Assembly: GCA_014360755.1 (NCBI GenBank)
Contig: JACIWX010000002.1
Location: 269,988-333,987, forward strand
Length of the DNA: 64,000 bases
Origin: Chloroflexota bacterium
GTDB lineage: Bacteria; Chloroflexota; Anaerolineae; UBA2200
Direction of reading: 5' to 3'
Each line of letters starts with the position of its first letter. Positions within the stretch are counted from its first letter, which is position 1. The translations under genes and the position numbers were made by a program. The notes beneath the pieces were generated by a model. It saw nothing but the letters and a program-made list of their open reading frames with translations, did no database searches and was not told the origin of the DNA. Of the stretch, positions 2,238 to 63,725 are shown piece after piece.

Positions 2238-2348
2238 CCCTGCCCTTTACGTTTTACGCTTTGCATTTCATTCCTCACTCATCACCTATCCCTCCTCCTC
2301 ATTTGGAATCACAGCCAGGATATGGTATATTCCTATCAAGGAGGGAAC

Positions 2349-4073
2349 GTGATCAAGAGAACACTTCTTGGGTTAGGGCTGCTCATCATTCTGTTTGCTT
2401 GGTGCGCCACAGCCATTCAGGCACAAGACCCGGTCACGCTGAACCGGTCAGAGTACTATATTACTGTCCTCCAGGATGGCCGGCTGCGAGTGAAGTACGA
2501 ACTGACCTTCACCGAACACGAAAGCGGCCGCGACCGCATCCAAGAACTCCCCCCATTGGAATCACCGCACACGCTGATTGAAGCGTATGGCACAGGGCCA
2601 GAGGGGCGCTTCAGGGTCTCTCTGCAACCCACGGGCAAAGCCGATGTCTATTCGGCAGTGTTCTCTCAGCGCACACAACGCAACGGCCAATACATCATCA
2701 CCATACGCTACACGGTGGACCGTTCCGTCTTTGACCCCACCACCATAGATGGCGAAGAGTACCGCGCGGTTGGCTGGGCTTCGGGGCAGTGGCAATTGCC
2801 CATCGAGGTGCTCGCCGCTACCTTCGTCCTGCCGATTGAGCTGCCCGCAGAAATCACGCAGCCAGAACAAGTTACCGATGAATTGGTCAACCGCGCAGGG
2901 GTGAAGGTTGGTAACCTGAGCGCTTTTAACCGTTGGGTGTATTTCCCGACTCCCGATACATCCACCGGCAAAAACTGGCTCTCTATTTATGTAGAGCAAA
3001 GGAATGTGCCCCCACGCGGCAAGATGCAGCCCCCCTTCTACCTGCGTGCCTCCACTATCCCGGTAACGCGCGAGACTGAAATCCCCCTCTACCCTACGCC
3101 ACAACCCACCCCGACGGCAGTCGGCTGGACCTCCGCCGCGCTGGCTTTGATCTTCTGCGTGGCACTGGGCACAATCCTCGCCGTAGTGCTGATCGTTGCC
3201 TTCATCGTGCGGCGACGTAAGAAGAAATCGGTTTACGAACCTCCCGAGATTGAACTGGAAACCTTTGAAACGCCCGGCGTGGTGCCGGATTTGAATGCCA
3301 TCGAAGCCGCCTTCTACATGGGCAATTCGGCGCGCACGATTACGCTGATTGTGCTCTCGCTCGCCAACCGCGGCGTGTTGACCATCATCAACCGCAATCC
3401 GCTGCAGTTGGAAGTTACCAATCCTAAAGCCCAACTGAACGCGTATGAACAGGCGCTGGTAGATGCCATCCAGGAAGACGGCACCATTGACCCAGCCCAA
3501 ATACCCACCATCTTGAACGCCATCGCCGCTACGCTGCAGCCCAAGATATGGAATGCTGACCCACAGGCGACGAAGGAAACCTACGAAAGGAAAATCCGTT
3601 CCGCCTGGGAGGAATTCGAGCGCGCGCCGCGCCCCGTGGCATCGGGACCAGAGGTCTGGCGACAACCATATACGCCCTGGATCATCATCAGCGATCGCTA
3701 CCGACCACGCCCATCTGCGGCACCGACGGGGCCCGCAGAACCCTCGCCCTTGATCCGCGCTGCAGAGGAAGCGGTAACGCCCATCGAGAGCCTCGCCCGC
3801 GATGTGAGCCGCAGCATCGAGACGGCCGTCTCGCGCGTGGCAACCGGGCTGGAAGCAGGGATGGCGCGCCTGACCGGCCGCGAACCATCGGCAGCGCCTG
3901 GCTATGACGCCTGCCATAGCGCATGTCACAGCGCTTGTCACAGCGCTTGCGTCCATGACGCTTGCCATAGCGCCTGTGTCCACGACGCCTGTCACAGCGC
4001 CTGCCACAGCGCCTGCGTCTGTCACAGCGCCTGCCACAGTGCCTGCCACAGCGCCTGCGTCGGCCGTTTCTAA
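2349..4073 (+). CDS. DUF2207-family membrane protein with a C-terminal (Ala-Cys-His-Ser)n Cys/His repeat tail. Start revised to GTG 2349, downstream of RBS AAGGAGGG.
   Basis: Signal peptide LLGLGLLIILFAWCATAIQAQD. DUF2207-like N-domain YYITVLQDGRLRVKYELTF. One TM followed by RRRKKK (positive-inside). The last ~55 aa read ACHSACHSACHSACVHDACHSACVHDACHSACHSACVCHSACHSACHSACVGRF. It is a paralog of the 9588..11474 protein. Confidence 0.7.
   Translation: MIKRTLLGLGLLIILFAWCATAIQAQDPVTLNRSEYYITVLQDGRLRVKYELTFTEHESGRDRIQELPPLESPHTLIEAYGTGPEGRFRVSLQPTGKADVYSAVFSQRTQRNGQYIITIRYTVDRSVFDPTTIDGEEYRAVGWASGQWQLPIEVLAATFVLPIELPAEITQPEQVTDELVNRAGVKVGNLSAFNRWVYFPTPDTSTGKNWLSIYVEQRNVPPRGKMQPPFYLRASTIPVTRETEIPLYPTPQPTPTAVGWTSAALALIFCVALGTILAVVLIVAFIVRRRKKKSVYEPPEIELETFETPGVVPDLNAIEAAFYMGNSARTITLIVLSLANRGVLTIINRNPLQLEVTNPKAQLNAYEQALVDAIQEDGTIDPAQIPTILNAIAATLQPKIWNADPQATKETYERKIRSAWEEFERAPRPVASGPEVWRQPYTPWIIISDRYRPRPSAAPTGPAEPSPLIRAAEEAVTPIESLARDVSRSIETAVSRVATGLEAGMARLTGREPSAAPGYDACHSACHSACHSACVHDACHSACVHDACHSACHSACVCHSACHSACHSACVGRF
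3909..4061 (+). repeat. Imperfect 12-bp tandem repeat (gcY tgY cac agc), ~12 units, encoding the ACHS/ACVHD tail.
   Basis: Direct reading of the sequence. The alternative frames encode low-complexity PATAPA/LSQRL strings, so only the CDS frame is meaningful. Confidence 0.85.
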
Positions 4074-4142
4074 ATATGGTCGGCTAGTTGGTTAGTCTGT
4101 TGGTTGTTTCAGCGGTTATCCGGAAAGAAGCAGAGGAAATCT

Positions 4143-5597
4143 ATGACTAGCCAACGGATGACTATAGGACAGCCATTGGACTTGCAGAGCTTTGCCAACG
4201 AACTCGTAACACAGACCAGGAATTACATCTACATCCGCCCCGAGGATGGCCTGTTCATCCTGCGTCCCAACCGCGTGCACCACCTGAACAAGACCGCTGT
4301 AGCACTGCTTTCGCGGCTGTACCGGAATGGCCAGGTGCCCGACGTGGACGCTGTGATCCACGAGGTGGCAACAGAATACGCGGTAGACGAAGAGCGCGTG
4401 CGCAACGACCTGTACAAACTGCTCTTGAGCGTCGCTGCCCTGCTGCGTGATGACGTCTGCGGCGCGCCAGCAGTGAGGGAAATACCCTTTGGCGCGCGCA
4501 AGCGCGAGTTGCCCGTGCTCTCTGAAATCGCCTTGACCTATCGCTGTCAGAACAAGTGCCTCTTCTGCTACGCAGCCTCCCCTGCCCGGGGCCAGCAAGT
4601 CCCGGAAATGGACACCGCACAGGTCAAGAAGGTCATTGACCGCATCTTTGACGAAGCACATTGCCCCACTGTCTCCTTCACCGGTGGCGAACCCACTTTG
4701 CGCGAAGACCTGCCAGAGTGCATCGCCTATGCCAAAGGCAAAGGGATGCGTGTCAATTTGATTACCAATGGCTTGCGCTGTGCGGATGCGGCATACGTCA
4801 CCATGCTGAAAGAGGCTGGGCTGGATTCCGCCCAGGTGAGCCTGGAGGGTCCCCGACCAGAGATCCACGACGCCATTGTGGGTCACCCAGGGGCATTTGT
4901 CAAGACTACCCGTGCCGTGCATGTGCTGCGCGCTGCCGGCATCCACACGCACACCAATACGACCATCTGCAGGAGCAACCGCGACTATCTCCTGGAACTG
5001 GTGGACTATATCGCGGATGAACTGCATTCCGAGTATTTCTCGATGAATGTGGTCATCAGCACTGGCACCGCCCTGCACCATACGGAAGAGGATGTAACCT
5101 ACTCCGAAGTCGGACCTATCATTGAGCAGGTTCAGCAGCGCGCAAAAGAAAAGGGGGTGAAACTGGTCTGGTATTCACCCACCCCGTATTGCCTTTTCAA
5201 TCCCGTGACGCACGGCTTGGGGTCCAAATCCTGTGCCTGTATAGACGGGCTTTTATCCGTAGCGCCTGACGGGGAACTGTTGCCCTGCTCTAGTTACGAA
5301 CGGGGCATTGGCAACCTGCTGCAACGACCGTTTGCTGATCTCTGGTACAGTGCCCAGGCGCGTTATTGGCGCGGCAAGCATTTCCTGCCCCCCACTTGTC
5401 AACGCTGCGAGATCAAACATATTTGCTGTGGGGCATGCCCGCTGTATTGGGAAGCCCATGGCGGATTCAGCGAGCTAGCAGGCGTTTCGCCGGGAGCCAA
5501 TTGGATGGACACGCTGCTCTGGAAGGTAAAGCGCCGCTTATGGGGGCAAGCCTATGGCGTAGGGCTGCGGGGATCGAGCAATCAGAGGGACAAGTAA
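4143..5597 (+). CDS. Radical SAM/SPASM-domain peptide-modifying enzyme with an N-terminal PqqD-like RiPP recognition element (RRE). Start revised to ATG 4143 after AGAGGAAA.
   Basis: CQNKCLFC (CX3CX2C) cluster and FTGGEPTL SAM-binding motif. C-terminal Cys-rich SPASM region CACIDG...PCSSYE...CQRCEIKHICCGACP. N-terminal ~110 aa resemble PqqD/RRE (LNKTAVALLSRL...VPDVDAVIHEVATEY). Confidence 0.85.
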   Translation: MTSQRMTIGQPLDLQSFANELVTQTRNYIYIRPEDGLFILRPNRVHHLNKTAVALLSRLYRNGQVPDVDAVIHEVATEYAVDEERVRNDLYKLLLSVAALLRDDVCGAPAVREIPFGARKRELPVLSEIALTYRCQNKCLFCYAASPARGQQVPEMDTAQVKKVIDRIFDEAHCPTVSFTGGEPTLREDLPECIAYAKGKGMRVNLITNGLRCADAAYVTMLKEAGLDSAQVSLEGPRPEIHDAIVGHPGAFVKTTRAVHVLRAAGIHTHTNTTICRSNRDYLLELVDYIADELHSEYFSMNVVISTGTALHHTEEDVTYSEVGPIIEQVQQRAKEKGVKLVWYSPTPYCLFNPVTHGLGSKSCACIDGLLSVAPDGELLPCSSYERGIGNLLQRPFADLWYSAQARYWRGKHFLPPTCQRCEIKHICCGACPLYWEAHGGFSELAGVSPGANWMDTLLWKVKRRLWGQAYGVGLRGSSNQRDK

Positions 5598-5607
5598 AGG
5601 GGAGAAC

Positions 5608-6771
5608 ATGGCAACAACGATGACATTGGGCAACTTTTATTCGTACATACGTAATAACCGCAAACGCATCGCTGACATCTACCGCGAGATCGAAGAAATC
5701 CAATACCAGTTCAACGACTTGCATGCCAGGCTCTTGCAAGGGCGGCAAAAGCTCATAGATACTTACGTCCCTCTTTTGCTGAAGACGGATGACCTGCCGG
5801 CAGATCTCGCACAGCTGCTGGCTACGCAAGAAAAGGTCGAGCGCGATGCCCTTCAGAAGGAAATCTCCGCGTTGGAGGAAGAAACCGCACTCAAGCGGCA
5901 AAAAGCGGATCAACTCATTAAGCAAGCACAAGAGCAAATCGCTCAACTGCGCCAGCAAAACCCTATTCTGAACGAACAAGAGGAGCAACTGAAAGCGCGT
6001 CGTGCCTCTATCGAGCGCGAGATCCAACGGCTGGACAACGAACTCAAACGGTTGGGGTGCTTCCCTATCGGTTGGTTGACCAACTACTTCCGACGTCGTC
6101 GCTTGCTCAAGCAGCGAAGAAAACTGGCGGAGAACCTGGAGGCAATCAACCGCGGGATTCGAGCAGTGCGCGCAAAGTGGCAGGAAGAAAAGAAACGCCT
6201 ACAGGAGAGCCAAGCCGAATTGCAGAGCCAATGGCAAGCGCTCAGCGTAGAAGTCGCACAGCTCCAAGCGAGGCTAGATGACCTCACGGCGAATATCGAG
6301 GAGTACAGCAAGCAGCGCGCGGTGCGGAATTGGCTGAGCAACCTGCAAGACCTGCCGGCAACCGATGAGCCTTGGCGCGAGCGCCTGGCACCATTGGTAG
6401 AACTGAACCGCAAAAAAGCCCAGTATGAAGCTGGCTTGACTTCGGTAGCCGAGATCCTGGGATTGCTGAAAGGCTTGGGCGAAGGCATGGACCGCTTTAT
6501 CCGCAGTGTGGCGACGGTATATGAGGAGCAACAGCGTTACAAACTCCCCAACCTTCGCCTCAACCTTTCCGACGCTGTTACTTCCTTCCATGCTATTTGG
6601 CCCGATTTCCAGGCCAAAGTCAAAGATGAAAAGTACTTGGGTGCTCACCCTCTGGAATTCAGCCAACGCATAAAGGAAGTGGTGCAACAAAAACTCCATG
6701 AATCCGCGATACAGAAGATGTTCGAGGATATGGGGAATGCTCTGACCGAAGCCACGAAAGCCTGGCGCTAA
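5608..6771 (+). CDS. Coiled-coil hypothetical protein, co-transcribed with the rSAM maturase (11-bp gap).
   Basis: Long heptad-rich Q/E/K/L segments. No enzymatic motif. Confidence 0.55.
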   Translation: MATTMTLGNFYSYIRNNRKRIADIYREIEEIQYQFNDLHARLLQGRQKLIDTYVPLLLKTDDLPADLAQLLATQEKVERDALQKEISALEEETALKRQKADQLIKQAQEQIAQLRQQNPILNEQEEQLKARRASIEREIQRLDNELKRLGCFPIGWLTNYFRRRRLLKQRRKLAENLEAINRGIRAVRAKWQEEKKRLQESQAELQSQWQALSVEVAQLQARLDDLTANIEEYSKQRAVRNWLSNLQDLPATDEPWRERLAPLVELNRKKAQYEAGLTSVAEILGLLKGLGEGMDRFIRSVATVYEEQQRYKLPNLRLNLSDAVTSFHAIWPDFQAKVKDEKYLGAHPLEFSQRIKEVVQQKLHESAIQKMFEDMGNALTEATKAWR

Positions 6772-6775
6772 CTGC

Positions 6776-6930
6776 GAGGGTGTTGAAAAATCTTGTCACC
6801 CTGAGCAAAGCAAAGAGCCTGCCCTGAGTATAACGAAGGGGTCTCGCGTAACTTTAGCCGTATTTTCCCAAGTACCGCGAGATGCTTCACTCCGTTCAGC
6901 ATGACCTTGGAAGAGTTTTTCAACACTCTC
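6776..6930. repeat. ~155-bp inverted-repeat-bounded element, copy 1 of 4. MITE-like or structured-RNA repeat.
   Basis: Termini GAG(G)GTGTTGAAAAATCTTGTCACCCTGAGC...GAGTTTTTCAACACTCTC. Near-identical copies at 43862-44013, 44275-44470 and 61161-61316. Confidence 0.8.
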
Positions 6931-7023
6931 TAACTGCAGCGCGAAAGGCTTCGGATGAGTTGGTAGTGCGCGCATCCAGCGCGCTAAATCTTACGATGAA
7001 CATGATGAGGAAGGGAGACATCG

Positions 7024-7515
7024 GTGAAAAAACTTTTAGCTATAGTGGCGATGATTGTTTCCATCCCACTGTTAGTCTTTGGGGTGATTTTTCTCATCGC
7101 GGCAGCAACAAATCCTAGCCGCCTCTTTGTCGCAGCCGTTTTGCTGCTCTTTGGCGGAGCGCTGCTCCTTGTAGGAGCGCTCACCCTGCGCCGGCTGGCT
7201 GAGATCAGCCCTGAAGCCCTGGCGACTGGCGTAATAGACCTGGCACGCCGTCTGGGTGGTGAAGTTACCGTTGCGCAGGTACAGGCAGAGTTCCGTATTC
7301 CCAGCGCATTAGCGCTCAGCACGCTCGAAAAACTGCGCGGGCGTGGGGAATGCCAGCGTGAGCAACGCACCGACCACGACGTATATGTCTTCAAGAGCGT
7401 TATGCCAGCCAAAGCCATCAAGCGCTGTCCGTACTGCGGCAGCGAATTCGCGGTCAAGAGCGCCCTGCGCGAGTGCCCTAACTGCGGTGCCATGCTGGAG
7501 ATTGTCAAGGAATAG
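7024..7515 (+). CDS. Membrane protein with a C-terminal zinc-ribbon.
   Basis: Two N-terminal hydrophobic helices. CPYCGSEF...CPNCGAML CxxC-N-CxxC motif. Confidence 0.55.
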   Translation: MKKLLAIVAMIVSIPLLVFGVIFLIAAATNPSRLFVAAVLLLFGGALLLVGALTLRRLAEISPEALATGVIDLARRLGGEVTVAQVQAEFRIPSALALSTLEKLRGRGECQREQRTDHDVYVFKSVMPAKAIKRCPYCGSEFAVKSALRECPNCGAMLEIVKE

Positions 7516-23523: not shown

Positions 23524-24612
23524 GTGATTACAGAAAAGGAACTTCAAGAACTAGCGGAATTCGTCAGCGAAGGCGCGCCAGCACTGAGTCTGTATCTTGA
23601 TACGGATCTCACCCAACAACCTAAAGAGAAATGCAAGCTCGTCCTACGCGATTTGTTGGACAAGGTGAGGGATTCGGCATCGGACAAGGATCTGGCGCAA
23701 ATCGAGCGTTTCTTTGACTTGGAATACGACTGGCAGGCAAGAGGAGTGGCGATATTCTCTGCCGCTGAGCAGGGATTTTGGCGCGTCTACCCATTGGCTG
23801 CTGGCATCGAAAGCGAAGCTCACATCGGGGACAGGCTGTACCTCAAGCCCCTCACCCATTTCCTGGATCACTACGACCGTTATGGCGTGGTGCTGGTTGA
23901 CCGCGAGAGTGCGCGCTTCTTCCTCCTGCACCTAGGGCAGATTGAGGAGAAGAGCGAATGGATTGGGCAGGATTTGAAGCGTCACAAACAAGGCGGATTT
24001 GCTGCTGCCCGCTATCAGCGCCACGTGGACAAACAAGCAGAGCAGAATTTGAAATTGGCGGCTGAAGCAGCTACTCGCTTCTGTCAAGAAAACCGCTGCA
24101 AGGGAGTTATCCTAGGCGGAGCGGAGGAGACATTAGCCCGCTTTCGCGAAATGCTGCCCAAAGCGCTGCAGAAACAAATCATCGGCACTCTAGTGCTGGA
24201 TGTGACCGCTCCCGCCAGCGAGGTGATGGAGCGTGCAACGGAACTCATCCGGTCTGAGGAAAACAAGCGGCAGCAAAAACTGGTCGAGGACCTCATCACC
24301 GCAGCAGCCAAAGGTGCAGGCGCGGTAACGGGCTTAGCCGATACTTTTTACGTCGCCCATCAAGGGCGTGCCCATATCTTAGTGGTGGAGAAAGACTTTG
24401 AAGCCGATGGTTACCTGTGTGATGGGTGTCAATATGTCAGCGCAGAGCCGGCCACCAAGTGTCCCTTCTGTGGCGGTAAACTGCACAAGATCCACGGGGC
24501 TGTAAACCGTGTAGTGCAGCGGGTTATCGAAGCGGGAGGCAAAGTAGAAACCGTAACGGATAACGAAGCCTTGGCCAAAGCAGGGCACATTGGTGCGATT
24601 TTGCGCTATTAA
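23524..24612 (+). CDS. Conserved hypothetical protein with a C-terminal zinc-ribbon, possibly an eRF1/Pelota-like (baeRF-type) fold.
   Basis: CDGC...CPFCGG zinc ribbon. Internal KQGGFAAARYQRH loop. Sits between hspR and clpB. Confidence 0.4.
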   Translation: MITEKELQELAEFVSEGAPALSLYLDTDLTQQPKEKCKLVLRDLLDKVRDSASDKDLAQIERFFDLEYDWQARGVAIFSAAEQGFWRVYPLAAGIESEAHIGDRLYLKPLTHFLDHYDRYGVVLVDRESARFFLLHLGQIEEKSEWIGQDLKRHKQGGFAAARYQRHVDKQAEQNLKLAAEAATRFCQENRCKGVILGGAEETLARFREMLPKALQKQIIGTLVLDVTAPASEVMERATELIRSEENKRQQKLVEDLITAAAKGAGAVTGLADTFYVAHQGRAHILVVEKDFEADGYLCDGCQYVSAEPATKCPFCGGKLHKIHGAVNRVVQRVIEAGGKVETVTDNEALAKAGHIGAILRY

Positions 24613-24706
24613 AAAGTGATGAGTAACGAGTAACGAGTGACAAGTGACGAGTAACGAGTGACGAATAAAAAATTACGTAGCACTCTAGCCCTCATGGAGG
24701 AGTAGT

Positions 24707-27298
24707 ATGAATTTGAATCGCTATACAGAAAAGGCGCAAGAAGCCCTGGTCCAAGCCCAGGAACTTGCGATGGAATATAATCACAGTCAAATTGATCCGG
24801 AGCATTTGCTCCTGGCGCTGCTGCAACAAGCAGATGGCGTGGTGCCGCAGATCATCGCGAAATTGGGCCTCACGCCAACACTGTTACAGCGTCCATTGGA
24901 AGAGGAATTGCAGCGGCGTCCCAAGGTCTATGGTGCGGCGGCGCGAGTTGGCATTGGGCCAACATTGCAAAATGTGCTCAACCGCGCCGAAGCGCAGGCG
25001 CAGTCCATGCGAGACGAATACGTATCCACCGAGCACCTGCTGATGGGCTTTGTGCTGGTGCCGAGCGGGCGTGCGGGTGAAATCCTGCAGCAGTATGGTA
25101 TCACGCTCAACCGCATTTATGAAGCCCTGACCAGTATCCGTGGCACCCAACGGGTGACAGACCAACACCCCGAAGGGAAATACCAGGCATTGGAGAAATA
25201 TGGGCGTGACCTGACCCAATTGGCGCGGCGCGGCAAGCTGGACCCGGTCATCGGGCGGGATGAGGAAATCCGCCGCGTTATCCAGGTGCTCTTACGGCGC
25301 ACGAAAAACAACCCGGTACTGGTGGGTGAGGCAGGCGTCGGTAAAACGGCCATTGTCGAGGGGCTTGCCCTACGCATTGTGCGCGGCGACGTACCCGAGG
25401 GATTGAAAAACAAACGCATCGTCGCCTTGGATTTGGGTGCTCTAGTGGCTGGAGCCAAATACCGCGGCGAATTTGAGGAGCGCTTGAAAGCAGTGCTCAA
25501 AGAAGTTACCGACTCTCAAGGCGAGATCATCCTCTTCATTGATGAACTGCACACGGTTGTTGGCGCTGGTGCAGCCGAAGGGGCGATGGATGCGAGCAAC
25601 ATGCTCAAGCCAATGCTGGCTCGTGGAGAGTTGCACTGCATCGGGGCAACCACCCTCGATGAATACCGCCAGCACATCGAGAAGGACGCTGCACTGGAAC
25701 GCCGCTTTCAGCCGGTCTATGTCAGCGAGCCTACGGTGGAAGAGACTATCAGTATCCTGCGCGGCTTGAAGGAGCGCTACGAGGTGCACCATGGCGTGCG
25801 TATCCAAGATGCTGCCTTGGTCGCTGCGGCCGTGCTTTCGCATCGCTATATCACGGACCGCTTCTTGCCTGATAAAGCCATTGACTTGATTGACGAGGCG
25901 GCTGCGCGGTTGCGCATGGAAATTGACAGCCTCCCAGCCGAACTCGACGAAGTCGAACGGCGCATCATGCAATTGCAAATTGAACAGCAAGCGCTCAAGA
26001 AGGAAAGCGATGAAGCATCCCAGGAACGCCTGAAGAAGATTGAGCAGGAACTCGCTGAACTTAAGGAAAAGAGCACCGCGATGAAGGGCCAATGGCAGCA
26101 AGAGAAAGAGGCTATTCAGGCCATCCAGCAACTCAAAACGCGCATTGAGGAAACCAAACAAGCCATTGAGCAAGCCGAGCGCCGTGCTGACCTAGAGCAG
26201 GCAGCAAAATTGCGCTACGGAGAATTGCCCAATCTGGAGCGAGAACTGCGCGCTCAGGAACAGCGCCTCCGGGAAATACAGCGTGGGCAACCCATGCTCA
26301 AGCAGGAGGTGGACGAGGAAGACGTCGCAGAGGTTGTCTCTAAATGGACGGGTATTCCTGTCTCGAAACTGCTGGAAGGCGAGAAAGCCAAATTATTGCG
26401 TATGGAAGAAAATCTGCGCATGCGCGTGGTGGGCCAGGACGAGGCGATTTCTGCCGTAGCGAACGCGGTACGACGGGCAAGAGCCGGCCTGCAGGACCCG
26501 AATCGGCCTATCGGTAGCTTCCTGTTTCTCGGCCCTACTGGCGTGGGCAAAACGGAACTGGCTCGCGCTTTGGCTGAGTTTCTCTTCGACGATGAAGACG
26601 CCATGATCCGCCTGGACATGAGCGAATACCAGGAGCGCCACACCGTTGCGCGCTTGATCGGTGCACCGCCAGGCTACGTTGGCTATGAAGAAGGCGGCCA
26701 GTTAACAGAAGCCGTGCGCCGGCGGCCGTATTCCGTGGTGTTATTCGATGAGATTGAAAAGGCGCACCCAGAGGTGTTCAACGCCCTCCTGCAGGTGCTG
26801 GACGATGGCCGGCTAACCGATGGCCATGGGCGTACAGTGAATTTCAAGAATACGGTGATCATCATGACCTCCAATGTCGGCAGCCACTGGATTAAGGAAT
26901 TGGGTGGCCGCGATGAGGCGGAGATGCGCCGCCGGGTGCTGGAAGCCTTGAGCCAGCAATTCCGACCAGAATTCCTGAACCGCATTGACGAGGTCATCAT
27001 CTTCCATTCACTAGGTATGGAACAATTGATACAAATTGTGGACATCCAGCTACGACGCTTGCAGGCTTTGCTCAATGACCGCAAGGTCAAACTAGAGCTA
27101 ACACCAGCCGCAAAGCAGCGTCTGGCGGAAGAAGGTTATGACCCCGTTTATGGGGCAAGGCCCCTCAAACGGGTCATCCAGCGACGGATACAGGATCCAC
27201 TCGCTTTGAAACTGCTGCAAGGCGAATTCAAAGAAGGGGATGAGATCGTGGTAGACGTCCAAGACGGTGAATTTGTCTTTAGAGCGAATAGGAAGTAA
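24707..27298 (+). CDS. clpB: Chaperone disaggregase ClpB.
   Basis: Two AAA modules (GEAGVGKT; GPTGVGKT). Long coiled-coil M-domain. Clp N-domain repeats. 863 aa. Confidence 0.9.
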
Positions 27299-27430: not shown

Positions 27431-29917
27431 ATGATGATGTCTTTTGAGCGATTTACAGAAAAAGCGCAGGATGCTGCAGCCCGCGCTTATGAGATTATGC
27501 AACGCTACCGGCATGGCCAGTTGGATACAGAGCACATCCTGCTGGCACTGCTGGAGCAACCCGATGGGGTGATTCCCGAGATTCTGGAGCGACTGCACGT
27601 GAATGTCGAAGCGGTGAAGAGCCGTTTGGATGACGTGCTCCGCGCTAGCCCTAGGCTGCAGACCTTTGGCAGCACAGCCAGACCGATGCAAGTGTACATT
27701 ACCCCACGCGTCAAACGCGTTTTGGATTTGGCAAACGAAGAAGCCCATAGGATGAAGGATGAATACGTTTCGACGGAGCACATTTTCTTGGCTATTGTCA
27801 ATGAACGCGATGGTCCCGCAGCGCGGATACTCAACGATTATGGCGTAACCAGAAACAAGGTGCTGAATGTCCTCCCAGATGTCCGTGGCGGGCAACGGGT
27901 AACCAGCCCAGAAGCTGAGAGCCGCTATCGCACGCTGGAAAAGTACAGTCGTGATCTGACTGCCCTGGCTAGAGAAGGAAAATTAGACCCAGTCATCGGA
28001 CGCGACCGTGAGATTATGCGCGTTATCCAGGTGTTGTGCCGGCGCACCAAAAACAACCCAGTGCTGATTGGGGAAGCCGGTGTGGGCAAGACAGCAATCG
28101 TCGAAGGATTGGCACAAAAAATTGTCAACGGTGACGTGCCCGAATTACTGATGAACAAACGGCTGATCGCACTGGACCTGGGCGCTATGGTGGCTGGAAC
28201 ACGCTTCCGGGGCGAGTTCGAGGAGCGGATCAAAGCCGCATTGGACGAAATCAAGCGTGCTGAGGGCGAGATCATCCTGTTCATTGATGAATTGCACAAC
28301 GTGGTCGGTGCTGGCGCTGCCCAGGGAGCCATTGATGCTTCTAGCATGCTCAAACCAGCCTTGGCACGTGGTGAACTACGCTGTATCGGCGCCACCACCC
28401 TTGACGACTATCACCAACATATCGAGAAGGATTCCGCGCTGGAGCGGCGTTTTGCTCCTATCTTTGTCGAAGAGCCCACCGTAGAGGAAACCATCGAGAT
28501 GCTCAAAGGCTTGCGGCCACGCTATGAGGAGCACCACCAGGTCGCCATCAGCGATGAAGCGATTGAAGCGGCCGCCCGCTTATCCGACCGCTACGTCAAA
28601 GACCGCTTCCTGCCTGATAAGGCGATTGACCTCATTGACGAAGCCGCATCCAAGTTGCGCATTGCCATTTTCAGCCTGCCCGAAGATTTGAAGCAGATGA
28701 AATTGGAGATTGGCCAGTTGATGGCTGAGGAAGAAACAGCGTGGCAAAACCGCAACTACGAGCAGGCTGCCATTGTCAAGAGCAAGCGCCTGAAACTGGA
28801 AGAAGAATTCAAGACAAAAAAGGAAACATGGAAAGCGGAGCGAGGTCTGGACGAGGTCGTACGTGAGGCGGATATTGCCGCCATCATCTCTGACTGGACC
28901 GGCATTCCCGTAAGCCGTATGTTGGAGACCGAAGCCGAGAAATTGCTGCACATGGAAGAGCGCCTGCATGAGCGCATTGTCAGCCAAGATGAAGCCGTAT
29001 CCGCCATATCGGATGCGATCCGCCGCGCACGCTCTGGGTTGAAGGACCCGCGGCGCCCTATCGGGAGCTTTATCTTCCTTGGTCCAACTGGCGTTGGCAA
29101 GACCGAACTGGCAAAGGCTCTCGCCGAGTTCCTCTTTGACGACGAAGATGCCCTGTTGCGCGTGGATATGAGCGAATACCAGGAGCGGCACACCGTCTCC
29201 CGCCTGATTGGTGCACCCCCAGGATACGTGGGGTATGAAGAAGGCGGGCAGTTGACCGAGGCAGTACGGCGGCGCCCCTATCAGGTGATCCTTTTCGATG
29301 AGATCGAGAAGGCACATCCCGATGTATGGAATGCCCTGCTCCAGATTCTGGAGGATGGCAGGCTGACCGATGGGCAAGGCAATGTGGTAGACTTTCGCAA
29401 CACGGTCATCATCATGACCTCCAACATCGGCACGCAGTACATGCCCAAAGGCGGTGGCACTTTAGGCTTCCGCACACCCAGCGAGCCCGCTGAAACGGAA
29501 AAGATGCGCTCCAACATCGAAGAGGCGCTGAAAAAGACCTTCCGTCCAGAATTCCTGAACCGTATTGACGAAGTGATCATCTTCCAGCGCCTGAGCAAGG
29601 AAGACATGAAGCGCATCGTGGACTTACAGATGAAGGATATCCGCCAGCGTCTGCGCGAGCAGGGACTGGACATCCAACTCACAGAAGCGGCGCGGGATTG
29701 GTTAGCCGAAAAGGGCTACGACCCTGCCTTTGGCGCCCGTCCACTGCGCCGTACGCTGCAGCGTCTGGTGGAGAGCCCGCTTTCGAAGAAGCTCATCCGC
29801 GGCGAACTGAAACCCGGCGACGAACTACAAATTGACATCGAACACGACGAGGTGGTCTTCCGCAAAGTGAAGGAGAGGGAACCAGCAGAGGCTCCCGCAT
29901 CCTATATCACCAGTTGA
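27431..29917 (+). CDS. Clp/Hsp100 ATPase, ClpC-like (short middle domain).
   Basis: Two AAA modules. Clp N-domain. Short M-domain. 828 aa. Confidence 0.8.
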
Positions 29918-41753: not shown

Positions 41754-41819
41754 GCTTGTCCCCCTTTCGGATAAGTGCTGTAACTTTGGCAAAGTATACT
41801 GGATAAAAGGTGAAATAAC

Positions 41820-41995
41820 AAATGGTAAGTGATGAGTGATGAGTGATAAGTGAGGAGTGAGAAATACTGCGTATTGCGTGTTCCGTTTTTTACTCAGCAC
41901 TCCTCACTCGTTACTCATCACTCATCACTCCTCACTCGTTACTCATCACTCATCACTCGTTACTCATCACTCATTACTCCTCACTTACAACCGCT
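41820..41995. repeat. Heptanucleotide tandem-repeat palindrome. About 5 GAGTGAT/GAGTGAG units on one arm and about 13 TCACTCA/TTACTCA/TCACTCC units on the other.
   Basis: Read directly from the sequence. The arms are reverse complements around a ~33-nt loop. It lies between the uvrC 3' end and the start of the next gene. Confidence 0.8.
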
Positions 41996-43832
41996 CTTTG
42001 ATGCGTTCAGCCGCCTCCCTGGTTATGCCTTTTACGGCAGCCAATTCCTCTACAGAAGCCTCGCGGATCGCTTCCAGCGAGCCAAAATGCTTCAGCAATG
42101 CCTGACGACGTTTGGGACCCACGCCTGGTATCTGGTCCAGGGTGGAAGCCAGTCCGCTCCGTTCGCGCAGCCGGCGGTGGTAGCCGATGGCAAAGCGGTG
42201 CGCCTCGTCACGCACCCGCTGCAGCAGATACAAGGCTTCGGAATCGCGTGGCAGCAGGAGGGGGTCGGACCGTCCAGGGACAAACACTTCCTCGCGCTGC
42301 TTAGCCAGCCCGATGGCTGGGATGTTTCCCACCCCCATCTCACCCATGACCCCCAATGCGGCGCGCAACTGCCCCTTGCCCCCATCCACGATCACCAGGT
42401 CTGGCATTACGCCCCAGCCACCTTCTTCCTCAGAGACCTGCTTTTGTTCCACAGCCTGGCTTTTGGCCCTTTTGAACCGCCTTCGCAGCACTTCTTGCAG
42501 CATGGCATAGTCATCCGCCCCGCTCACTGTTTTGATGCGGAAACGGCGGTACTCGCTTTTGCGTGGCACGCCCTTGACAAAAACTACCATGCTGCCTGTA
42601 GCGGATGTACCTTGGATATTGGAGATGTCGTAGCATTCGATGCGCGTTGGGGCTTGTGCCAAATGCAGGTATTTCTGCAACTCATCCAACGCCGTAACCT
42701 GCCGTGCCTGATCCGCTGCCCATTGTGCACGCAGATGCGCGAGGGTCTCGGCAGCATTTTCGGCTGCCATCTGCACCAACGCGCGCCCTTTGCCGCGGCG
42801 CGGCACACGGATCGCCACCCTTGTCCCACGCTTCTGACGCAGCCACTCTTCAATGACCTGTGCTTCTTCTATATCGTGCTGCAGCAGGATGGTCGGAGGG
42901 ATGTACGCCGCTTCATCATAGAACTGCTTGACAAAGGAAGTCATGACCTCCAGGTCATCTTCATCCTGCGTGCCGGTGAGGATAAAATACTCCCGTCCGA
43001 TCAGCTTGCCCCCGCGGATGAAAAAGGTCTGCACGCAAGCCTGGCCATCCTCACGCGCGAAAGCAATGACGTCCTCGTCGCTGCGGGTTGCCGACACGAT
43101 CTTCTGTCGCTCGACCACCCTTTGCAACGCCTGCACTTGATCGCGCAAAACCGCCGCGCGTTCAAAATCCAATGCCTCTGCGGCTTTCTGCATCTCCTGC
43201 TCTAAATCGTGGATGATGCGCTCTTGCTTGCCTTCCAAGAAGAGGACAATCTGTTCAATCAACGCACGGTAATCCTCGCGCGAGATGGCGCCAATGCACG
43301 GCCCGGCGCAGCGGCCAATGTGGTAGTACAAGCAGGCTCGCTGATCCTTGCCCGTTATCTCGCGTTTGCAGGTCAGATAGGGGAAGAGCTTACGCAGCAA
43401 CTCCATAGTCTGCTGCACTGCTTTGGCTGAGGTGTAAGGCCCAAAATAGCGCGCACCGTCGTCCTGCATGTGGCGCACGGTGTAAATACGAGGGAATGGC
43501 TCCTGCAGACTGATTTTGATGTACGGATAGCGCTTGTCGTCCTTGAGCCGCACATTGTAGCGCGGGCGGTATTTCTTGATGAGATTGCATTCGAGGATAA
43601 GCGCTTCCAGTTCCGAACCGGTAACGATAAAGTCAAAATCGGCGATGTGATCCACCAGCCGGCGTATCTTGGGAGTTTGGCCATTGTAGGCATGAAAATA
43701 GGAACGCACGCGGTTGCGCAGATTGACTGCCTTGCCCACGTAAATGACCTGGCCCGCAGCATCTTTCATCAAGTATACGCCCGGCTTGGTCGGCAACGAA
43801 TTGAGACGCTCTTGCAGAAGTGCTTGCTCCAT
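41985..43832 (-). CDS. uvrC: Excinuclease ABC subunit C (UvrC).
   Basis: N-terminal GIY-YIG (GVYLMKDAAGQVIYVGKAVNLRNRVRSYF). UvrBC-interaction and RNase H-like/HhH C-terminus. 615 aa. Confidence 0.95.
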   Translation of the reverse strand: MEQALLQERLNSLPTKPGVYLMKDAAGQVIYVGKAVNLRNRVRSYFHAYNGQTPKIRRLVDHIADFDFIVTGSELEALILECNLIKKYRPRYNVRLKDDKRYPYIKISLQEPFPRIYTVRHMQDDGARYFGPYTSAKAVQQTMELLRKLFPYLTCKREITGKDQRACLYYHIGRCAGPCIGAISREDYRALIEQIVLFLEGKQERIIHDLEQEMQKAAEALDFERAAVLRDQVQALQRVVERQKIVSATRSDEDVIAFAREDGQACVQTFFIRGGKLIGREYFILTGTQDEDDLEVMTSFVKQFYDEAAYIPPTILLQHDIEEAQVIEEWLRQKRGTRVAIRVPRRGKGRALVQMAAENAAETLAHLRAQWAADQARQVTALDELQKYLHLAQAPTRIECYDISNIQGTSATGSMVVFVKGVPRKSEYRRFRIKTVSGADDYAMLQEVLRRRFKRAKSQAVEQKQVSEEEGGWGVMPDLVIVDGGKGQLRAALGVMGEMGVGNIPAIGLAKQREEVFVPGRSDPLLLPRDSEALYLLQRVRDEAHRFAIGYHRRLRERSGLASTLDQIPGVGPKRRQALLKHFGSLEAIREASVEELAAVKGITREAAERIKERL

Positions 43833-43861
43833 TACCCTCTCCGTATACAGATTATTTATAC

Positions 43862-44013
43862 GAGAGTTTTGAAAATCTTATCGCCCTGAGCGAAGCGAAG
43901 AGCCTGCCCTGAGTGCAACGAAGGGGTCTCGCGTAACTTTAGCCGTATTTTCAAGTACTGGGAGATGCTTCACTTCGTTCAGCATGACATTGGAAGGGCT
44001 TCTTAACACCCTC
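43862..44013. repeat. Inverted-repeat-bounded element, copy 2.
   Basis: Aligns along its whole length with copy 1 (6776-6930), with about 10 substitutions. Confidence 0.8.
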
Positions 44014-44274
44014 AATTATACCATGAGTTGCAACCGCGGGGTATTTCCTGCCCGGTGCTTTTTCATCGTCGTTCTGAAGAAGGAAGAAATTCGCTGCACA
44101 AGGCCAAGCCCTGCTACCGTCGTGTGAAGCCTTCGCTGTCCCCCTCCCTCTGGACAAGGCTCAAGGTAATACACCTGCATAACTTCGCAGCGACTTACCT
44201 GACTTGGCAAGGAACCAGCCGCCTTTTGGGAAAACAAGCCCTCTGATCAGCGTGGTTCACAGTCCACGCAAGGA

Positions 44275-44470
44275 TGAGAGTTTTGAAAATCTTGTCACCC
44301 TGAGCAAGCGAAGAGCCTGCCCTGAGTATAACGAAGGGGTCTCACGTAATTTTAGCCGTATTTTCCCAAGTACTGTGAGATGCTTCACTTCTCCTTCGCT
44401 TTCCCTTCGCTCAGGGCAAGGCTCAGGGCGAAGGTTCAGCATGACACTGAAAGGACTTTTTCAACACTCT
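44275..44470. repeat. Inverted-repeat-bounded element, copy 3, carrying a ~45-bp internal insertion or duplication (cttctccttcgctttcccttcgctcagggcaaggctcagggcgaaggt).
   Basis: Aligns with copies 1 and 2 outside the insertion. Confidence 0.8.
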
Positions 44471-44560
44471 CAAGGATGACGGCAGACTGTGGTACCTCTG
44501 AAGGAATTTTCTCCGCAGTCTCGGCGTGCTCGGCGGTAAAAGTTGCCCTTTTCGAGCTTT

Positions 44561-61052: not shown

Positions 61053-61160
61053 GCTGAAAACACGCGCTACTGTCCAGTTGGCCTCTGCCAACTTGCCTCT
61101 ATTCAGCCAGGGAACGTTCCTGTCAATGTTTGCCTCGGCACTGCGCTCATCGAGGTGTCA

Positions 61161-61316
61161 GAGAGTGTTGAAAAAGTCCTTCCAATGTCATGCTGAACGG
61201 AGTGAAGCATCTCGCAGTACTTGGGAAAATAGGCTAAAGTTACGCGAGACCCCTTCGTTATACTCAGGGCAGGCTCTTCGCTTTGCTCAGGGTGACAAGA
61301 TTTTCAACACTCTCAT
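61161..61316. repeat. Inverted-repeat-bounded element, copy 4, inverted relative to copy 1.
   Basis: Reverse complement aligns with 6776-6930. Confidence 0.8.
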
Positions 61317-61456
61317 GTCATAAATTTTGCATTTCTAGCATTTCATGCTAAAATAAGCATCTCAAAGGTTTGCTTTTAGCAACCTTTCCGCCCCAGGCTG
61401 TCCTGTTCGCCCAACAGGGCATACCTGCGGCAATCCCAAGGAAAGGAGGTGTGGCG

Positions 61457-63646: not shown

Positions 63647-63725
63647 TCAGCACGATGCAGAGCGCCAAGTGAGGGCAGTATATATCCCTCCGCGTTCTCG
63701 GCGTGCTCTGCGGTAAGATTTTCCA

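What the first reader, a model, noticed from the sequence alone, without database searches (positions are those of the whole stretch)
6776..6930. New ~155-bp inverted-repeat-bounded repeat family with four intergenic copies, either a MITE or a structured RNA.
Copies at 6776-6930, 43862-44013, 44275-44470 and 61161-61316 share ~90% identity. Each has ~16-bp terminal inverted repeats (GAGTGTTGAAAAA...TTTTTCAACACTC) and internal complementary segments (CCCTGAGC.../...GCTCAGGG). All four lie directly after convergent or terminal genes: the coiled-coil gene, uvrC (two copies) and the GT39 gene. The ORF track produces spurious peptides across them (FQCHAERSEAS...), which confirms they are non-coding. 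Possible functions include a mobile MITE, a REP-like terminator or insulator element, or an sRNA.
Basis: seen in the sequence. Interest (0 to 1): 0.6.

Follow-up and report, generated by a model that had tools for sequence, protein, structure and literature searches.

The report
Small mobile DNA repeat in Chloroflexota
The four ~155-bp repeats are copies of a small non-coding jumping-DNA element (a MITE) that inserted recently between genes of an uncultured Chloroflexota bacterium. This is an ordinary kind of element, but it is built from tiny hairpin units that also occur in several other bacterial phyla.

Summary
Four copies (6776-6930 +, 43862-44013 +, 44276-44471 +, 61161-61314 -) are 89-97% identical and end in 14-15-bp terminal inverted repeats, GAGAGTGTTGAAAA. 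The element is a non-autonomous DNA transposon (MITE), not a structured RNA.

- **Target-site duplications:** 9 of 14 full-length copies are flanked by exact 6-9-bp direct duplications, against 1 of 182 mismatched control pairs.
- **Empty sites:** copies 1, 2 and 3 are absent from a relative with 98% identical flanking proteins, which carries a single copy of the duplicated target.
- **Spread:** a fifth copy lies just outside the window. Short-read contigs of the same strain break inside copies. Further copies occur in three other sources.
- **Against RNA:** no Rfam hit, no covariation, no promoter or terminator, both orientations, every intergenic context.
uvrC is on the minus strand, so copies 2 and 3 lie upstream of it. 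Copy 2 duplicated its -10 box.
- **Missing piece:** no transposase with matching ends was found.

Each arm is a REP-like hairpin (TGTC-A-NNN-TGAGCGAAGCGAA-N'N'N'-T-CTC). Extra 24-47-nt units of the same type are nested inside. Such units occur in at least five phyla, sometimes in-frame in genes.

Verdict: a new member of a known kind, of moderate-to-low interest.

The parts
6776..6930 (+). MITE copy 1 (155 bp). It is flanked by the 8-bp duplication CTAACTGC at 6768-6775 and 6930-6937. The duplicated target contains the TAA stop codon (6769-6771) of ORF 5608-6771.
   Evidence: Empty site GCCTGGCGCTAACTGCAGCG in relatives L082/L083 (98% identical flanking protein) and L084 (85%).
43862..44013 (+). 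MITE copy 2 (152 bp), 29 bp upstream of the uvrC start codon (43832, minus strand). The flanking duplication is ATTTATAC (43854-43861) / AATTATAC (44014-44021), 7 of 8 matching. The target was the extended -10 box TGGTATAAT of uvrC.
   Evidence: Empty site in L068/L069. The filled site also has 6 extra bases (AATCTG in uvrC orientation).
44276..44471 (+). MITE copy 3 (196 bp), the long variant with a 42-bp extra hairpin-unit insertion at about 44392-44433. It is flanked by AAGGAT (44270-44275 and 44472-44477), or by 8 bp AAGGATGA if the first GA of the element is counted.
   Evidence: Empty site ...CCACGCAAGGATAACGGCC in L068/L069. The same long variant sits at other loci in the relative (L059, L062).
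61161..61314 (-). MITE copy 4 (154 bp, opposite orientation), between the PMT_2/GT39-like gene (stop at 61052) and rpsF (start at 61457). The flanking duplication is degenerate: TGTCA at 61156-61160 and 61316-61320.
   Evidence: Four Logan contigs that carry the identical S6 protein all end 27 bp inside this copy. The rpsF promoter-like site is at 61326-61354.
6776..6793 (+). Outer terminal inverted repeat (GAGGGTGTTGAAAAATCT). Its partner is at 6913-6930. The equivalent ends are present in all copies. This is the presumed transposase binding and cleavage site.
6795..6846 (+). Left arm. It is a REP-like hairpin unit GTCACCCTGAGCAAAGCAAAG^GGGTCTC, interrupted at ^ by a second 24-nt unit of the same type (AGCCTG-CCC-TGA-GT-ATA-AC-GAA-GGG, about 6814-6837).
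   Evidence: Copy L060b lacks exactly the 24-nt unit. The unit occurs in 33 unrelated flank contexts.
6879..6905 (-). Right arm. On the minus strand it reads GTCATGCTGAACGGAGTGAAGCATCTC, the same hairpin-unit type, head-to-head with the left arm.
   Evidence: Hymenobacter volaticus plasmid NZ_CP095062 carries a nearly identical unit.

Best explanation
The repeats are copies of a non-autonomous DNA transposon (a MITE) of about 154 bp.

**Proposed mechanism.** A transposase encoded elsewhere in the genome recognises the 14-18-bp terminal inverted repeats (GAGAGTGTTGAAAA...). It cuts the element out or copies it, then inserts it at a staggered cut in AT-rich intergenic DNA. Repair of the stagger leaves a short direct duplication, usually 8 bp and 6-9 bp as read.

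**Shown here.**
- The repeat family exists and has terminal inverted repeats.
- Copies are flanked by target-site duplications.
- Precise empty sites exist in close and more distant relatives, so the insertions are derived and recent.
- A variant subfamily with an internal insertion occurs at different loci in two genomes.
- All copies are intergenic, in either orientation.

**Inferred.**
- Mobilisation is by a DDE-type transposase acting in trans. No such gene was found.
- Any effect on neighbouring genes is inferred only. Copy 2 splits the uvrC -10 box from the gene and regenerates a TATAAA box next to it. Copy 4 abuts the rpsF promoter.

**Internal build.** The body of the element is a head-to-head pair of REP-like hairpin units, and further units of the same type are nested inside them.
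For: - **Repeat family:** four copies at 89-97% identity with terminal inverted repeats.
- **Duplications:** 9 of 14 full-length copies have an exact direct duplication of at least 6 bp immediately flanking the element, against 1 of 182 mismatched left/right control pairs. Three or four more are imperfect, such as 7 of 8 matching.
- **Empty sites, copies 2 and 3:** L068/L069 (uvrC 98% identical) has a 578-bp intergenic region instead of 944 bp. Both copies are missing and there is one copy of the target.
- **Empty site, copy 1:** L082/L083 (98%) and the more distant L084 (85%) carry a single CTAACTGC. L070 (92%) also lacks copies 2 and 3.
- **Relative is itself a carrier:** the genome with the empty sites comes from metagenome Ga0315298, which carries at least 10 copies at other loci.
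- **Repeat-induced assembly breaks:** a 7.4-kb Logan contig of the same strain starts and ends inside copies, which shows a fifth copy about 630 bp before the window. The S6 contigs break inside copy 4.
- **Propagating variant:** the long variant with the same internal insertion is at different loci in both genomes (w3, L059, L062).
- **Position and coding:** all 15 copies are intergenic, and none has an ORF of 150 aa or more spanning it.
- **Target preference:** the duplicated targets are 34% G+C against 53% for the window.
Against: - No transposase gene was found among 46 window ORFs scanned with Pfam.
- Every match to the terminal repeat in all held sequence is the end of a MITE copy, so no autonomous partner has been seen.
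- No single combination of element boundary and duplication length fits all copies. With fixed ends the duplications read as 6, 7, 8 or 9 bp. This is unusual for one DDE enzyme, although part of it may come from terminal G/GA bases that coincide with the target.
- Copies within one genome differ by 3-11%, so this is not one very recent burst.
- Copy 2's filled site has 6 extra bases, and copy 4's duplication is degenerate.
Confidence: 0.85

Rival explanations
1. The element is a REPIN-like or TIRtron-like element. In this reading the mobile unit is the head-to-head pair of REP-like hairpins. A HUH tyrosine transposase (RAYT/TIRYT, IS200/IS605 type) moves it as single-stranded DNA and recognises the hairpins rather than the outer inverted repeats.
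For: - The arms are TGTC-tagged hairpin units arranged head-to-head, as described for CGTC/TGTC REPs and REPINs.
- Units of this type are nested in and deleted from the element (L060b and the w3/L059/L062 insertion).
- A diverged copy has a unit at a different position (L081).
- The same units occur alone or in other composites in many phyla.
- Families of terminal inverted repeats associated with tyrosine transposases are known (PMC3733652).
Against: - Flanking direct duplications of 6-9 bp are present. From my own knowledge, IS200/IS605-type Y1 transposition leaves none and inserts next to a fixed tetra- or pentanucleotide.
- No conserved flanking tetranucleotide is seen.
- The outer 18 bp beyond the hairpins is conserved in all copies, including the 79%-identical L081.
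- No Y1 transposase was found in the window.
Confidence: 0.07
2. The element is a structured non-coding RNA or a cis-acting RNA element (terminator, insulator or mRNA stabiliser). In this reading the copies are maintained for their fold, and mobility is incidental.
For: - Each copy folds into a long hairpin more stable than shuffles (z = -4.0 to -5.7).
- One compensatory G-C to A-U change is seen in copy 3.
- MITEs next to genes are known to be co-transcribed and to affect mRNA stability (PMC3733652).
- Copies 1, 2 and 4 are close enough to genes to lie in their transcripts.
Against: - Both strands fold equally well, and so does the DNA, as expected of any inverted repeat.
- There is no Rfam hit even at E up to 10.
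- The covariation term is +0.49, and most substitutions break pairs.
- No intrinsic-terminator-like site and no internal promoter-like site were found.
- Orientation and context are mixed.
- A 98% relative does without three of the four copies.
Confidence: 0.05
3. The similarity is chance or an assembly artefact.
For: None beyond the fact that the window comes from a metagenome-assembled genome.
Against: - BLAST E-values are 1e-54 to 1e-77.
- The same junctions appear in independent Logan assemblies of several runs.
- Copies are found in independent projects.
Confidence: 0.01

Closest known systems
Bacterial MITEs (for example Correia/NEMIS of Neisseria, RUP of S. pneumoniae, ERIC/YPAL, Nezha of cyanobacteria)
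   Same: It is 150-200 bp long and non-coding. It has 14-18-bp terminal inverted repeats, flanking target-site duplications and many intergenic copies close to genes. It folds into a long hairpin, and insertions are polymorphic between close strains.
   Different: There is no sequence similarity to any described family that I could find: no Rfam hit and no literature hit by sequence. The partner transposase is unknown. The duplication length reads as 6-9 bp rather than one fixed value. The interior is built from REP-like hairpin units.
CGTC/TGTC-tagged REP super-family, including Rickettsia RPE-4/RPE-6 and Neisseria dRS3 (Di Nocera et al. 2013, PMC3733652). This comparison is for the internal hairpin units, not the whole element.
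   Same: The units carry an unpaired (C/T)GTC tag, then an 8-9-bp stem that often starts with AT, a short loop and a 3-nt tail. They are mostly arranged as head-to-head dimers. They are spread over several phyla, have no associated transposase, and some are inserted in-frame in genes.
   Different: The stem contains a conserved TGA/GAA segment (tandem G.A) and a GNA triloop around GC-GAA-GC or GT-GNA-AC. The tail is CTC, not CCA. The phyla seen here (Chloroflexota, Acidobacteriota, Gemmatimonadota and others) are not those listed in the paper, except Bacteroidetes. I could not see the paper's Figure 2 consensus sequences, so sequence-level membership is untested.
REPINs / REP doublets mobilised by RAYTs (Bertels and Rainey 2011; Nunvar 2010)
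   Same: Two inverted REP-like hairpins form a larger hairpin that behaves as one unit and is spread through the genome.
   Different: REPs carry a GTAG tag and have a RAYT gene flanked by them. As far as I know, no target-site duplication is reported for them. Here the tag is TGTC, extra outer inverted repeats exist, duplications are present, and no RAYT was seen.
IS6/IS26 family ends and their two known MITEs (Varani et al. 2021, PMC7986276)
   Same: Both have short ends with an internal TGTT motif followed by an A-run (IS26: GGCACTGTTGCAAA; here: GAGAGTGTTGAAAA). Both make 8-bp direct target repeats.
   Different: The family's conserved GG tip is GA here. 'gcaaa' is 'gaaaa'. Duplications here are not uniformly 8 bp. 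No IS6-type transposase was found. This is only a lead.

Membership tests
[quoted passage not shown] | Small (about 70-300 bp) with no coding capacity | tested here: met
   Copies are 152-196 bp. All six frames contain stops, or are open only as short fragments. No ORF of 150 aa or more spans any copy.
[quoted passage not shown] | Terminal inverted repeats of about 15-30 bp | tested here: met
   GAGAGTGTTGAAAA at both ends of every full copy.
[quoted passage not shown] | Flanking target-site duplication | tested here: met
   9 of 14 copies have an exact duplication of at least 6 bp, against 1 of 182 control pairs. The length reads as 6-9 bp, and no single model fits all copies.
[quoted passage not shown] | Presence/absence polymorphism with an intact empty site | tested here: met
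   Copies 1, 2 and 3 are absent from 98% relatives that carry a single target copy. They are also absent from 92% and 85% relatives.
[quoted passage not shown] | Multiple dispersed copies in a genome | tested here: met
   Five copies lie in about 65 kb of the source genome. At least 10 are in Ga0315298 contigs. The whole-genome count could not be obtained.
[quoted passage not shown] | A full-length IS with the same ends that encodes the transposase | tested here: not met
   None was found in about 0.6 Mb of held sequence, and no transposase domain in 46 window ORFs.
REP / REPIN (RAYT-associated) | 20-40-bp palindromic unit tagged by GTAG | tested here: not met
   The units are tagged TGTC or CGTC, not GTAG.
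REP / REPIN (RAYT-associated) | RAYT (IS200-like Y1 transposase) gene flanked by the repeats | tested here: not met
   None in the window. The rest of the genome was not searchable.
CGTC/TGTC-tagged REP super-family (internal units only) | Unpaired CGTC (or TGTC/CCTC) tag at one end | tested here: met
   TGTC in the window arms. CGTC in L046, L069 and Hymenobacter. The definition comes from PMC3733652.
CGTC/TGTC-tagged REP super-family (internal units only) | 8-9-bp stem that starts with complementary A-T residues in positions 1 and 2, and a loop of 4-5 | tested here: inconclusive
   ATGC/GCAT and ATTC/GAAT stems fit, but ACCC/GGGT and GCCC/GGGG do not start with AT. A 9-bp stem is obtained only if the tandem G.A pairs are counted. 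Nearest-neighbour folding gives z near 0 for single units.
CGTC/TGTC-tagged REP super-family (internal units only) | Short unpaired tail, mostly CCA | tested here: not met
   The tail here is CTC (GGGTCTC, GCATCTC).
CGTC/TGTC-tagged REP super-family (internal units only) | Mostly head-to-head dimers | tested here: met
   The two arms of the MITE, L046 and the Hymenobacter locus are all head-to-head dimers.
IS6/IS26-family-derived MITE | GG at the tips, with cTGTt and caaa motifs in a 14-20-bp inverted repeat | tested here: not met
   The tip is GA. GTGTT is present. GAAAA replaces gCAAA.
IS6/IS26-family-derived MITE | 8-bp direct target repeats | tested here: inconclusive
   Clean 8-bp duplications occur at w1, L059 and L060a, with 7 of 8 matching at w2 and L063. 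Others read as 6, 7 or 9 bp.
Any Rfam RNA family | Score at or above the family's gathering threshold | tested here: not met
   Only tRNAs passed in the window. Over copies 2 and 3 the best match has E = 0.29 and is irrelevant.
Intrinsic terminator | G+C-rich stem followed at once by a T-run | tested here: not met
   No terminator-like site falls inside any copy.

The most novel reading that the evidence does not exclude
The 24-47-nt hairpin units inside the MITE may themselves be an independently spreading, pan-bacterial class of 'nano' elements. Their form is (C/T)GTC-stem-TGA-GY-GNA-RC-GAA-stem'-CTC.

They insert into one another, which is seen here as nesting in and loss from MITE copies. 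They also insert in-frame into protein-coding genes across at least five phyla, with no known enzyme. On this reading the MITE is one vehicle built from them.

The stems covary between families while the TGA...GNA...GAA core is kept. That suggests recognition of a folded single-stranded DNA or RNA hairpin.
Probability: 0.3. Interest if true: 0.6.

Novelty: new member of a known kind. Interest (0 to 1): 0.33.

Why it matters
As a MITE it is ordinary, but it has practical and evolutionary uses.

- **Assembly and annotation:** it explains why short-read assemblies of this Chloroflexota lineage break at these points. It marks spurious ORFs that should not be annotated.
- **Strain markers:** it gives insertion markers that differ between strains whose flanking proteins are 98% identical.
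- **Possible effects on genes:** copy 2 sits between the uvrC -10 box and the gene, and copy 4 sits against the rpsF promoter. These are natural experiments on how such insertions affect expression.
- **Wider question:** the element is assembled from small GNA-loop hairpin units shared with Bacteroidota, Acidobacteriota, Gemmatimonadota and others. Some of these lie in-frame in sensor kinases. This extends the known CGTC/TGTC REP and RPE phenomenon to new phyla, and its spreading mechanism is still unknown.

Tried and rejected
- **Rfam:** a search at gathering threshold over the whole window and at E up to 10 over copies 2 and 3 found nothing relevant.
- **Literature by sequence:** six diagnostic strings gave only chance hits in primer lists.
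- **Viral contigs:** the end-specific 18-mer gave four chance matches inside coding sequence. The 22-nt core gave none.
- **Protein search with the MITE's longest open frame:** the 'FQCHAERSEAS' frame gave one hit only (P0121, leading to L081). Gene callers rarely call these ORFs, so the approach cannot count copies.
- **Plasmid collection, distant mode:** it returned only a 31-nt unit match in Hymenobacter.
- **Autonomous partner:** every match to the terminal repeat with up to 2 mismatches, in all held loci, was a MITE end. No transposase domain was found in the window.
- **One fixed boundary plus duplication length:** this model was rejected.
- **Thermodynamic support for single hairpin units:** z is near 0 with standard DNA parameters. 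The unit-hairpin idea therefore rests on stem covariation, not on energy.
- **Reciprocal polymorphism:** I looked for MITE loci of the relative that fall inside the window. There was no overlap.
- **IS6 origin:** this was considered from memory and checked against PMC7986276. It is only a partial match.

Full report
**1. The observation**

Reading the four stretches and aligning them confirms a repeat of about 154 bp. The copies are at 6776-6930 (+), 43862-44013 (+), 44276-44471 (+) and 61161-61314 (-).
- Identity over aligned columns is 88.8-96.7%. BLAST E-values are 1e-54 to 1e-77.
- Copy 3 is 196 bp because of a 42-bp internal insertion.
- The ends are inverted repeats, GAGAGTGTTGAAAA...TTTT(T)CAACACTCTC. 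With up to 3 mismatches the 15-mer occurs 7 times in the window, all at copy ends, against 1.5 expected.
- The window is 53% G+C and the copies are 47-49%.

**2. Context, and a correction**

Pfam scans place the neighbouring genes as follows.
- Copy 1 starts 4 bp after the stop of a coiled-coil protein gene (5608-6771, +). It ends 93 bp before a small zinc-ribbon protein gene (7024-7515, +).
- uvrC (41985-43832) is on the minus strand, with its N-terminal GIY-YIG domain at residues 17-93. Copies 2 and 3 therefore lie upstream of uvrC, in the 944-bp divergent region between uvrC and an M50 peptidase gene (44776, +). Copy 2 is 29 bp from the uvrC start codon.
- Copy 4 lies between a PMT_2 glycosyltransferase gene (stop at 61052) and rpsF (start at 61457). 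It ends 12 bp before a promoter-like site at 61326-61354.

The source is an uncultured 'Chloroflexi bacterium' MAG. Its UvrC is MBC7232535.1, and the contig is 482,799 bp long.

**3. Copies elsewhere**
- A 23-nt family-specific string found 8 contigs, all from JGI metagenome Ga0315298. They hold 10 copies at 79-95% identity.
- A shorter 22-nt core found three contigs of Anaerolineae MAG KM4338-63 with full or truncated copies (L015, L042, L044).
- A protein search with the element's longest open frame led to one diverged copy (79% identity) in GCA_964416415.1 (L081).
- Logan contigs of the same strain end inside copies. Four contigs that carry the identical S6 protein stop 27 bp into copy 4.
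- A 7.4-kb Logan contig starts inside one copy and ends inside copy 1. This reveals a fifth copy about 630 bp before the window start.

**4. Evidence for mobility**

*Target-site duplications.* With 25-bp flanks laid out, most copies show a direct duplication abutting the ends.

| Copy | Flanking duplication |
|---|---|
| L059 | GCTGAATG, 8 of 8 |
| L060a | AACCTACG, 8 of 8 |
| w1 | CTAACTGC, 8 bp if the last C of the element is counted |
| L056 | TGTTCGT |
| L015 | GTTCATAAT |
| w3 | AAGGAT |
| L060b | ATACAT |
| L062 | GAAAGT |
| L057 | TTTTCA |
| L063 | TCTACATG / TCTACACG |
| w2 | ATTTATAC / AATTATAC |

Nine of 14 copies have an exact match of at least 6 bp, against 1 of 182 mismatched control pairs.

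*Empty sites.*
- UvrC homologue P0002 (98% identical) lies on L068/L069, and L069 is a Ga0315298 contig. Its M50-uvrC spacer is 578 bp, and the alignment shows both window copies cleanly missing.
- At copy 3 the relative reads CCACGCAAGGATAACGGCC, with one AAGGAT.
- At copy 2 the relative reads GGTATAATTTATACAGGGAGAGGG. The target was therefore the extended -10 box TGGTATAAT, about 25 bp before the uvrC ATG. The filled site carries GTATAATT / GTATAAAT on either side, plus 6 extra bases.
- For copy 1, the homologue P0126 (98%) on L082/L083 and P0128 (85%) on L084 both have one CTAACTGC (or CTAAACGC in L084) and no element.
- L070 (92%) also lacks copies 2 and 3.

Since several outgroups are empty, insertion in the window's lineage is the simplest reading.

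*Target preference.* The duplicated targets are AT-rich: 34% G+C against 53% for the window.

*A propagating variant.* The long variant with the same internal insertion occurs at unrelated loci in both genomes (w3, L059, L062). Variants therefore propagate as units.

**5. An unresolved detail**

No single choice of element boundary and duplication length fits all copies. With ends fixed at GAGAG...CTCTC the duplications read 6, 7, 8 or 9 bp. Part of this may be ambiguity, because the terminal G/GA or C of the element can equally be read as part of the target (w1, w3, L056, L060b). I cannot show that this explains every case.

**6. Tests of the RNA reading**
- Each copy folds into a long hairpin with z between -4.0 and -5.7. 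Both strands and the DNA fold equally well, as any inverted repeat would.
- In the 14-copy alignment the covariation term is +0.49 kcal/mol. One of 47 pairs shows a compensatory change, and most substitutions break pairs.
- Divergence is low, so this is weak evidence either way.
- There are no terminator-like sites and no promoter-like sites inside copies, and no Rfam match.
- All 15 copies are intergenic, in tandem, divergent and convergent contexts and in both orientations.

Together with the empty sites, this makes a dedicated RNA gene unlikely. It does not exclude side effects on neighbouring transcripts.

**7. The missing transposase**

Forty-six window ORFs scanned with Pfam contain no transposase or integrase. 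The region is housekeeping: dnaE, two clpB genes, ftsH, dnaJ/grpE, feoAB, uvrC and rpsF-rpsR. Every match to the terminal repeat in about 0.6 Mb of held sequence is a MITE end.

From memory the ends resemble IS6/IS26 ends. The literature confirms IS26's GGCACTGTTGCAAA, the family motifs GG...cTGTt...caaa, 8-bp target repeats and two known MITEs. Here the tip is GA, not GG, and the A-run differs, so this is only a lead. Other families that make 8-9-bp repeats remain possible; I name IS256, ISL3, IS1595, IS66 and ISAs1 from my own knowledge, and none was tested.

**8. Internal anatomy**

Each arm is a unit of the form (T/C)GTC-A-NNN-TGA-GC-GAA-GC-GAA-N'N'N'-T-CTC.
- The left arm is GTCACCCTGAGCGAAGCGAAG^GGGTCTC. 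The right arm, on the other strand, is GTCATGCTGAACGGAGTGAAGCATCTC.
- The triplets pair within an arm (CCC/GGG, TGC/GCA) better than between arms.
- Drawn as a hairpin, a unit has a 9-bp stem with two G.A pairs and a GAA loop around GCGAAGC. From my own knowledge, d(GCGAAGC) is the well-known very stable DNA mini-hairpin.
- The left arm is interrupted at ^ by a 24-nt unit of the same type, AGCCTG-CCC-TGA-GT-NNA-AC-GAA-GGG. In this unit the C-G pair next to the loop is replaced by T-A.
- Copy L060b lacks exactly this unit. The extra 22-47 bp in w3, L059, L062 and L061 is again such a unit, in the other orientation.
- The diverged copy L081 carries a unit at a different position.

**9. The units are far more widespread than the MITE**
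These are mostly Chloroflexota MAGs, but by record title they also include Acidobacteria, Terriglobia, Gemmatimonas, Deltaproteobacteria and Binatia MAGs.
- The 60 occurrences examined, which include copies in the window and in the metagenome loci, fall into 33 different flank contexts. Conservation stops sharply at the unit borders.
- A complete plasmid of a cultured Hymenobacter (Bacteroidota) has a head-to-head pair of CGTC-ATGC-TGAGCGGAGCCGAA-GCAT-CTCGCG units in an intergenic region. MAG contamination is therefore not the explanation.
- Among all matches to N4-TGA-NN-NNN-NN-GAA-N4 in held sequence, full pairing of the inner two positions goes with pairing of the outer four. It is seen in 31 of 66 sequences when at least 3 outer pairs form, against 26 of 287 when at most 1 forms.
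- The stems differ between families (ATGC/GCAT, ATTC/GAAT, GCCC/GGGG, GCTC/GAGC), and the loops are mostly GNA.
- These counts are not phylogenetically independent, and standard DNA energy parameters give no excess stability for single units. The hairpin reading is therefore suggestive, not proven.
- Some units lie in-frame in real genes:
  - a linker between receiver domains of a hybrid histidine kinase (L016);
  - inside the propeller region of a Reg_prop/Y_Y_Y sensor kinase, with the HisKA and HATPase domains downstream in the same frame (L020);
  - a Pro/Thr-rich linker of a zf-HC2 protein (L029).

**10. Comparison with known systems**

The whole element meets the working definition of a bacterial MITE except that its transposase is unknown.

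The internal units most resemble the CGTC/TGTC-tagged REP super-family of Di Nocera et al. (PMC3733652).
- *Shared features:* the tag, stems of 8-9 bp often starting with AT, short loops, 3-nt tails, head-to-head dimers, no associated transposase, and intragenic in-frame copies as in Rickettsia RPEs.
- *Differences:* the tail is CTC rather than CCA, the core is TGA...GAA, and the phyla differ.
- *Limit:* I could not compare with the paper's figure consensus sequences.

REPINs/RAYTs and TIRtrons/TIRYTs are the nearest alternatives for mechanism. The flanking duplications and the lack of a fixed flanking tetranucleotide argue against them.

**11. Verdict**

The finding is real, and the MITE interpretation is right. 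The RNA, terminator and insulator alternatives are unsupported, and the positional claim is partly wrong. This is a new member of a known kind of element.

The more unusual point is the modular build from nested hairpin units that cross phyla. It deserves a dedicated survey, but what I have is a set of consistent observations rather than a demonstrated mechanism.

Noticed in passing
window 3903-4073 (3' end of ORF 2322-4073) and ORF 4104-5597: The C-terminus of a DUF2207-type membrane protein is a (CHSA)n repeat: ...[56 protein letters not shown]. A radical SAM/SPASM enzyme with a PqqD-like domain follows directly. This may be a Cys-repeat substrate and its maturase (RiPP-like). The gene pair is conserved in relatives (L078, L082).
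   Followed up: partly
window 41816-41999 and 24610-24677: Heptamer tandem repeats (AGTGATG / AGTAACG / AGTGACG type) lie just downstream of the uvrC stop and, in inverse orientation, upstream of clpB. Within 41816-41999 the two halves are themselves inverted (D3, I5-I23).
   Followed up: no
window 44511-44547 and 63688-63724; also L057, L058 and L060 next to MITE copies: A second short repeat, CTCCGC.GTCTCGGCGTGCTC.GCGGTAA, occurs once 40 bp after copy 3 and once between tRNA genes. It is conserved in the relative L069. A related TTTCACCGCAGAGC... sequence abuts MITE copies in the Ga0315298 contigs. L057 and L058 share an identical right flank.
   Followed up: no
L016 about 755-779; L020 about 639-663; L029 about 544-567: REP-like hairpin units, singly or in clusters, lie in-frame inside real genes. 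These are a hybrid histidine kinase linker, a Reg_prop/Y_Y_Y sensor kinase and a zf-HC2 protein linker. They are read as ...EPALS(V/E)TKG.... This parallels Rickettsia RPEs.
   Followed up: partly
L076 1370-1535 (Hymenobacter volaticus plasmid NZ_CP095062.1, about 134.2 kb): A cultured Bacteroidota isolate carries a head-to-head pair of CGTC-ATGC-TGAGCGGAGCCGAA-GCAT-CTCGCG units, plus a third solo unit. They lie between a carbohydrate kinase gene and a GH32 gene and are nearly identical to the MITE's right arm.
   Followed up: partly
L002, L004-L006, L012-L014, L025, L026, L028, L031, L037, L038, L041, L047, L048, L051, L055 (MAG LacPavin_0920_WC70_MAG_64_18): A different high-copy repeat of about 140 bp contains the same 24-nt unit, inserted between CTCAG and GGTGAC, and ends in ...GGGGTGACAAAAGCGAGTTTTGCGGTACTGC. 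It was seen at about 20 loci of one Chloroflexota MAG.
   Followed up: no
L069 6659-6686: A solo unit, CGTCACCCTGAGCAAAGCGAGGGGTCTC, lies downstream of uvrC in the close relative. It shows that single units exist in the same lineage as the MITE.
   Followed up: no
L078 1-30 (about 630 bp before window position 1): A fifth MITE copy of the source strain lies upstream of a GHMP kinase gene. Only its last 30 bp are seen, because the Logan contig starts inside it.
   Followed up: yes
window 24707-27298 and 27431-29917: Two ClpB-type AAA+ chaperone genes sit in tandem, with 74-88% identical DNA stretches (D1, D5, D11).
   Followed up: no
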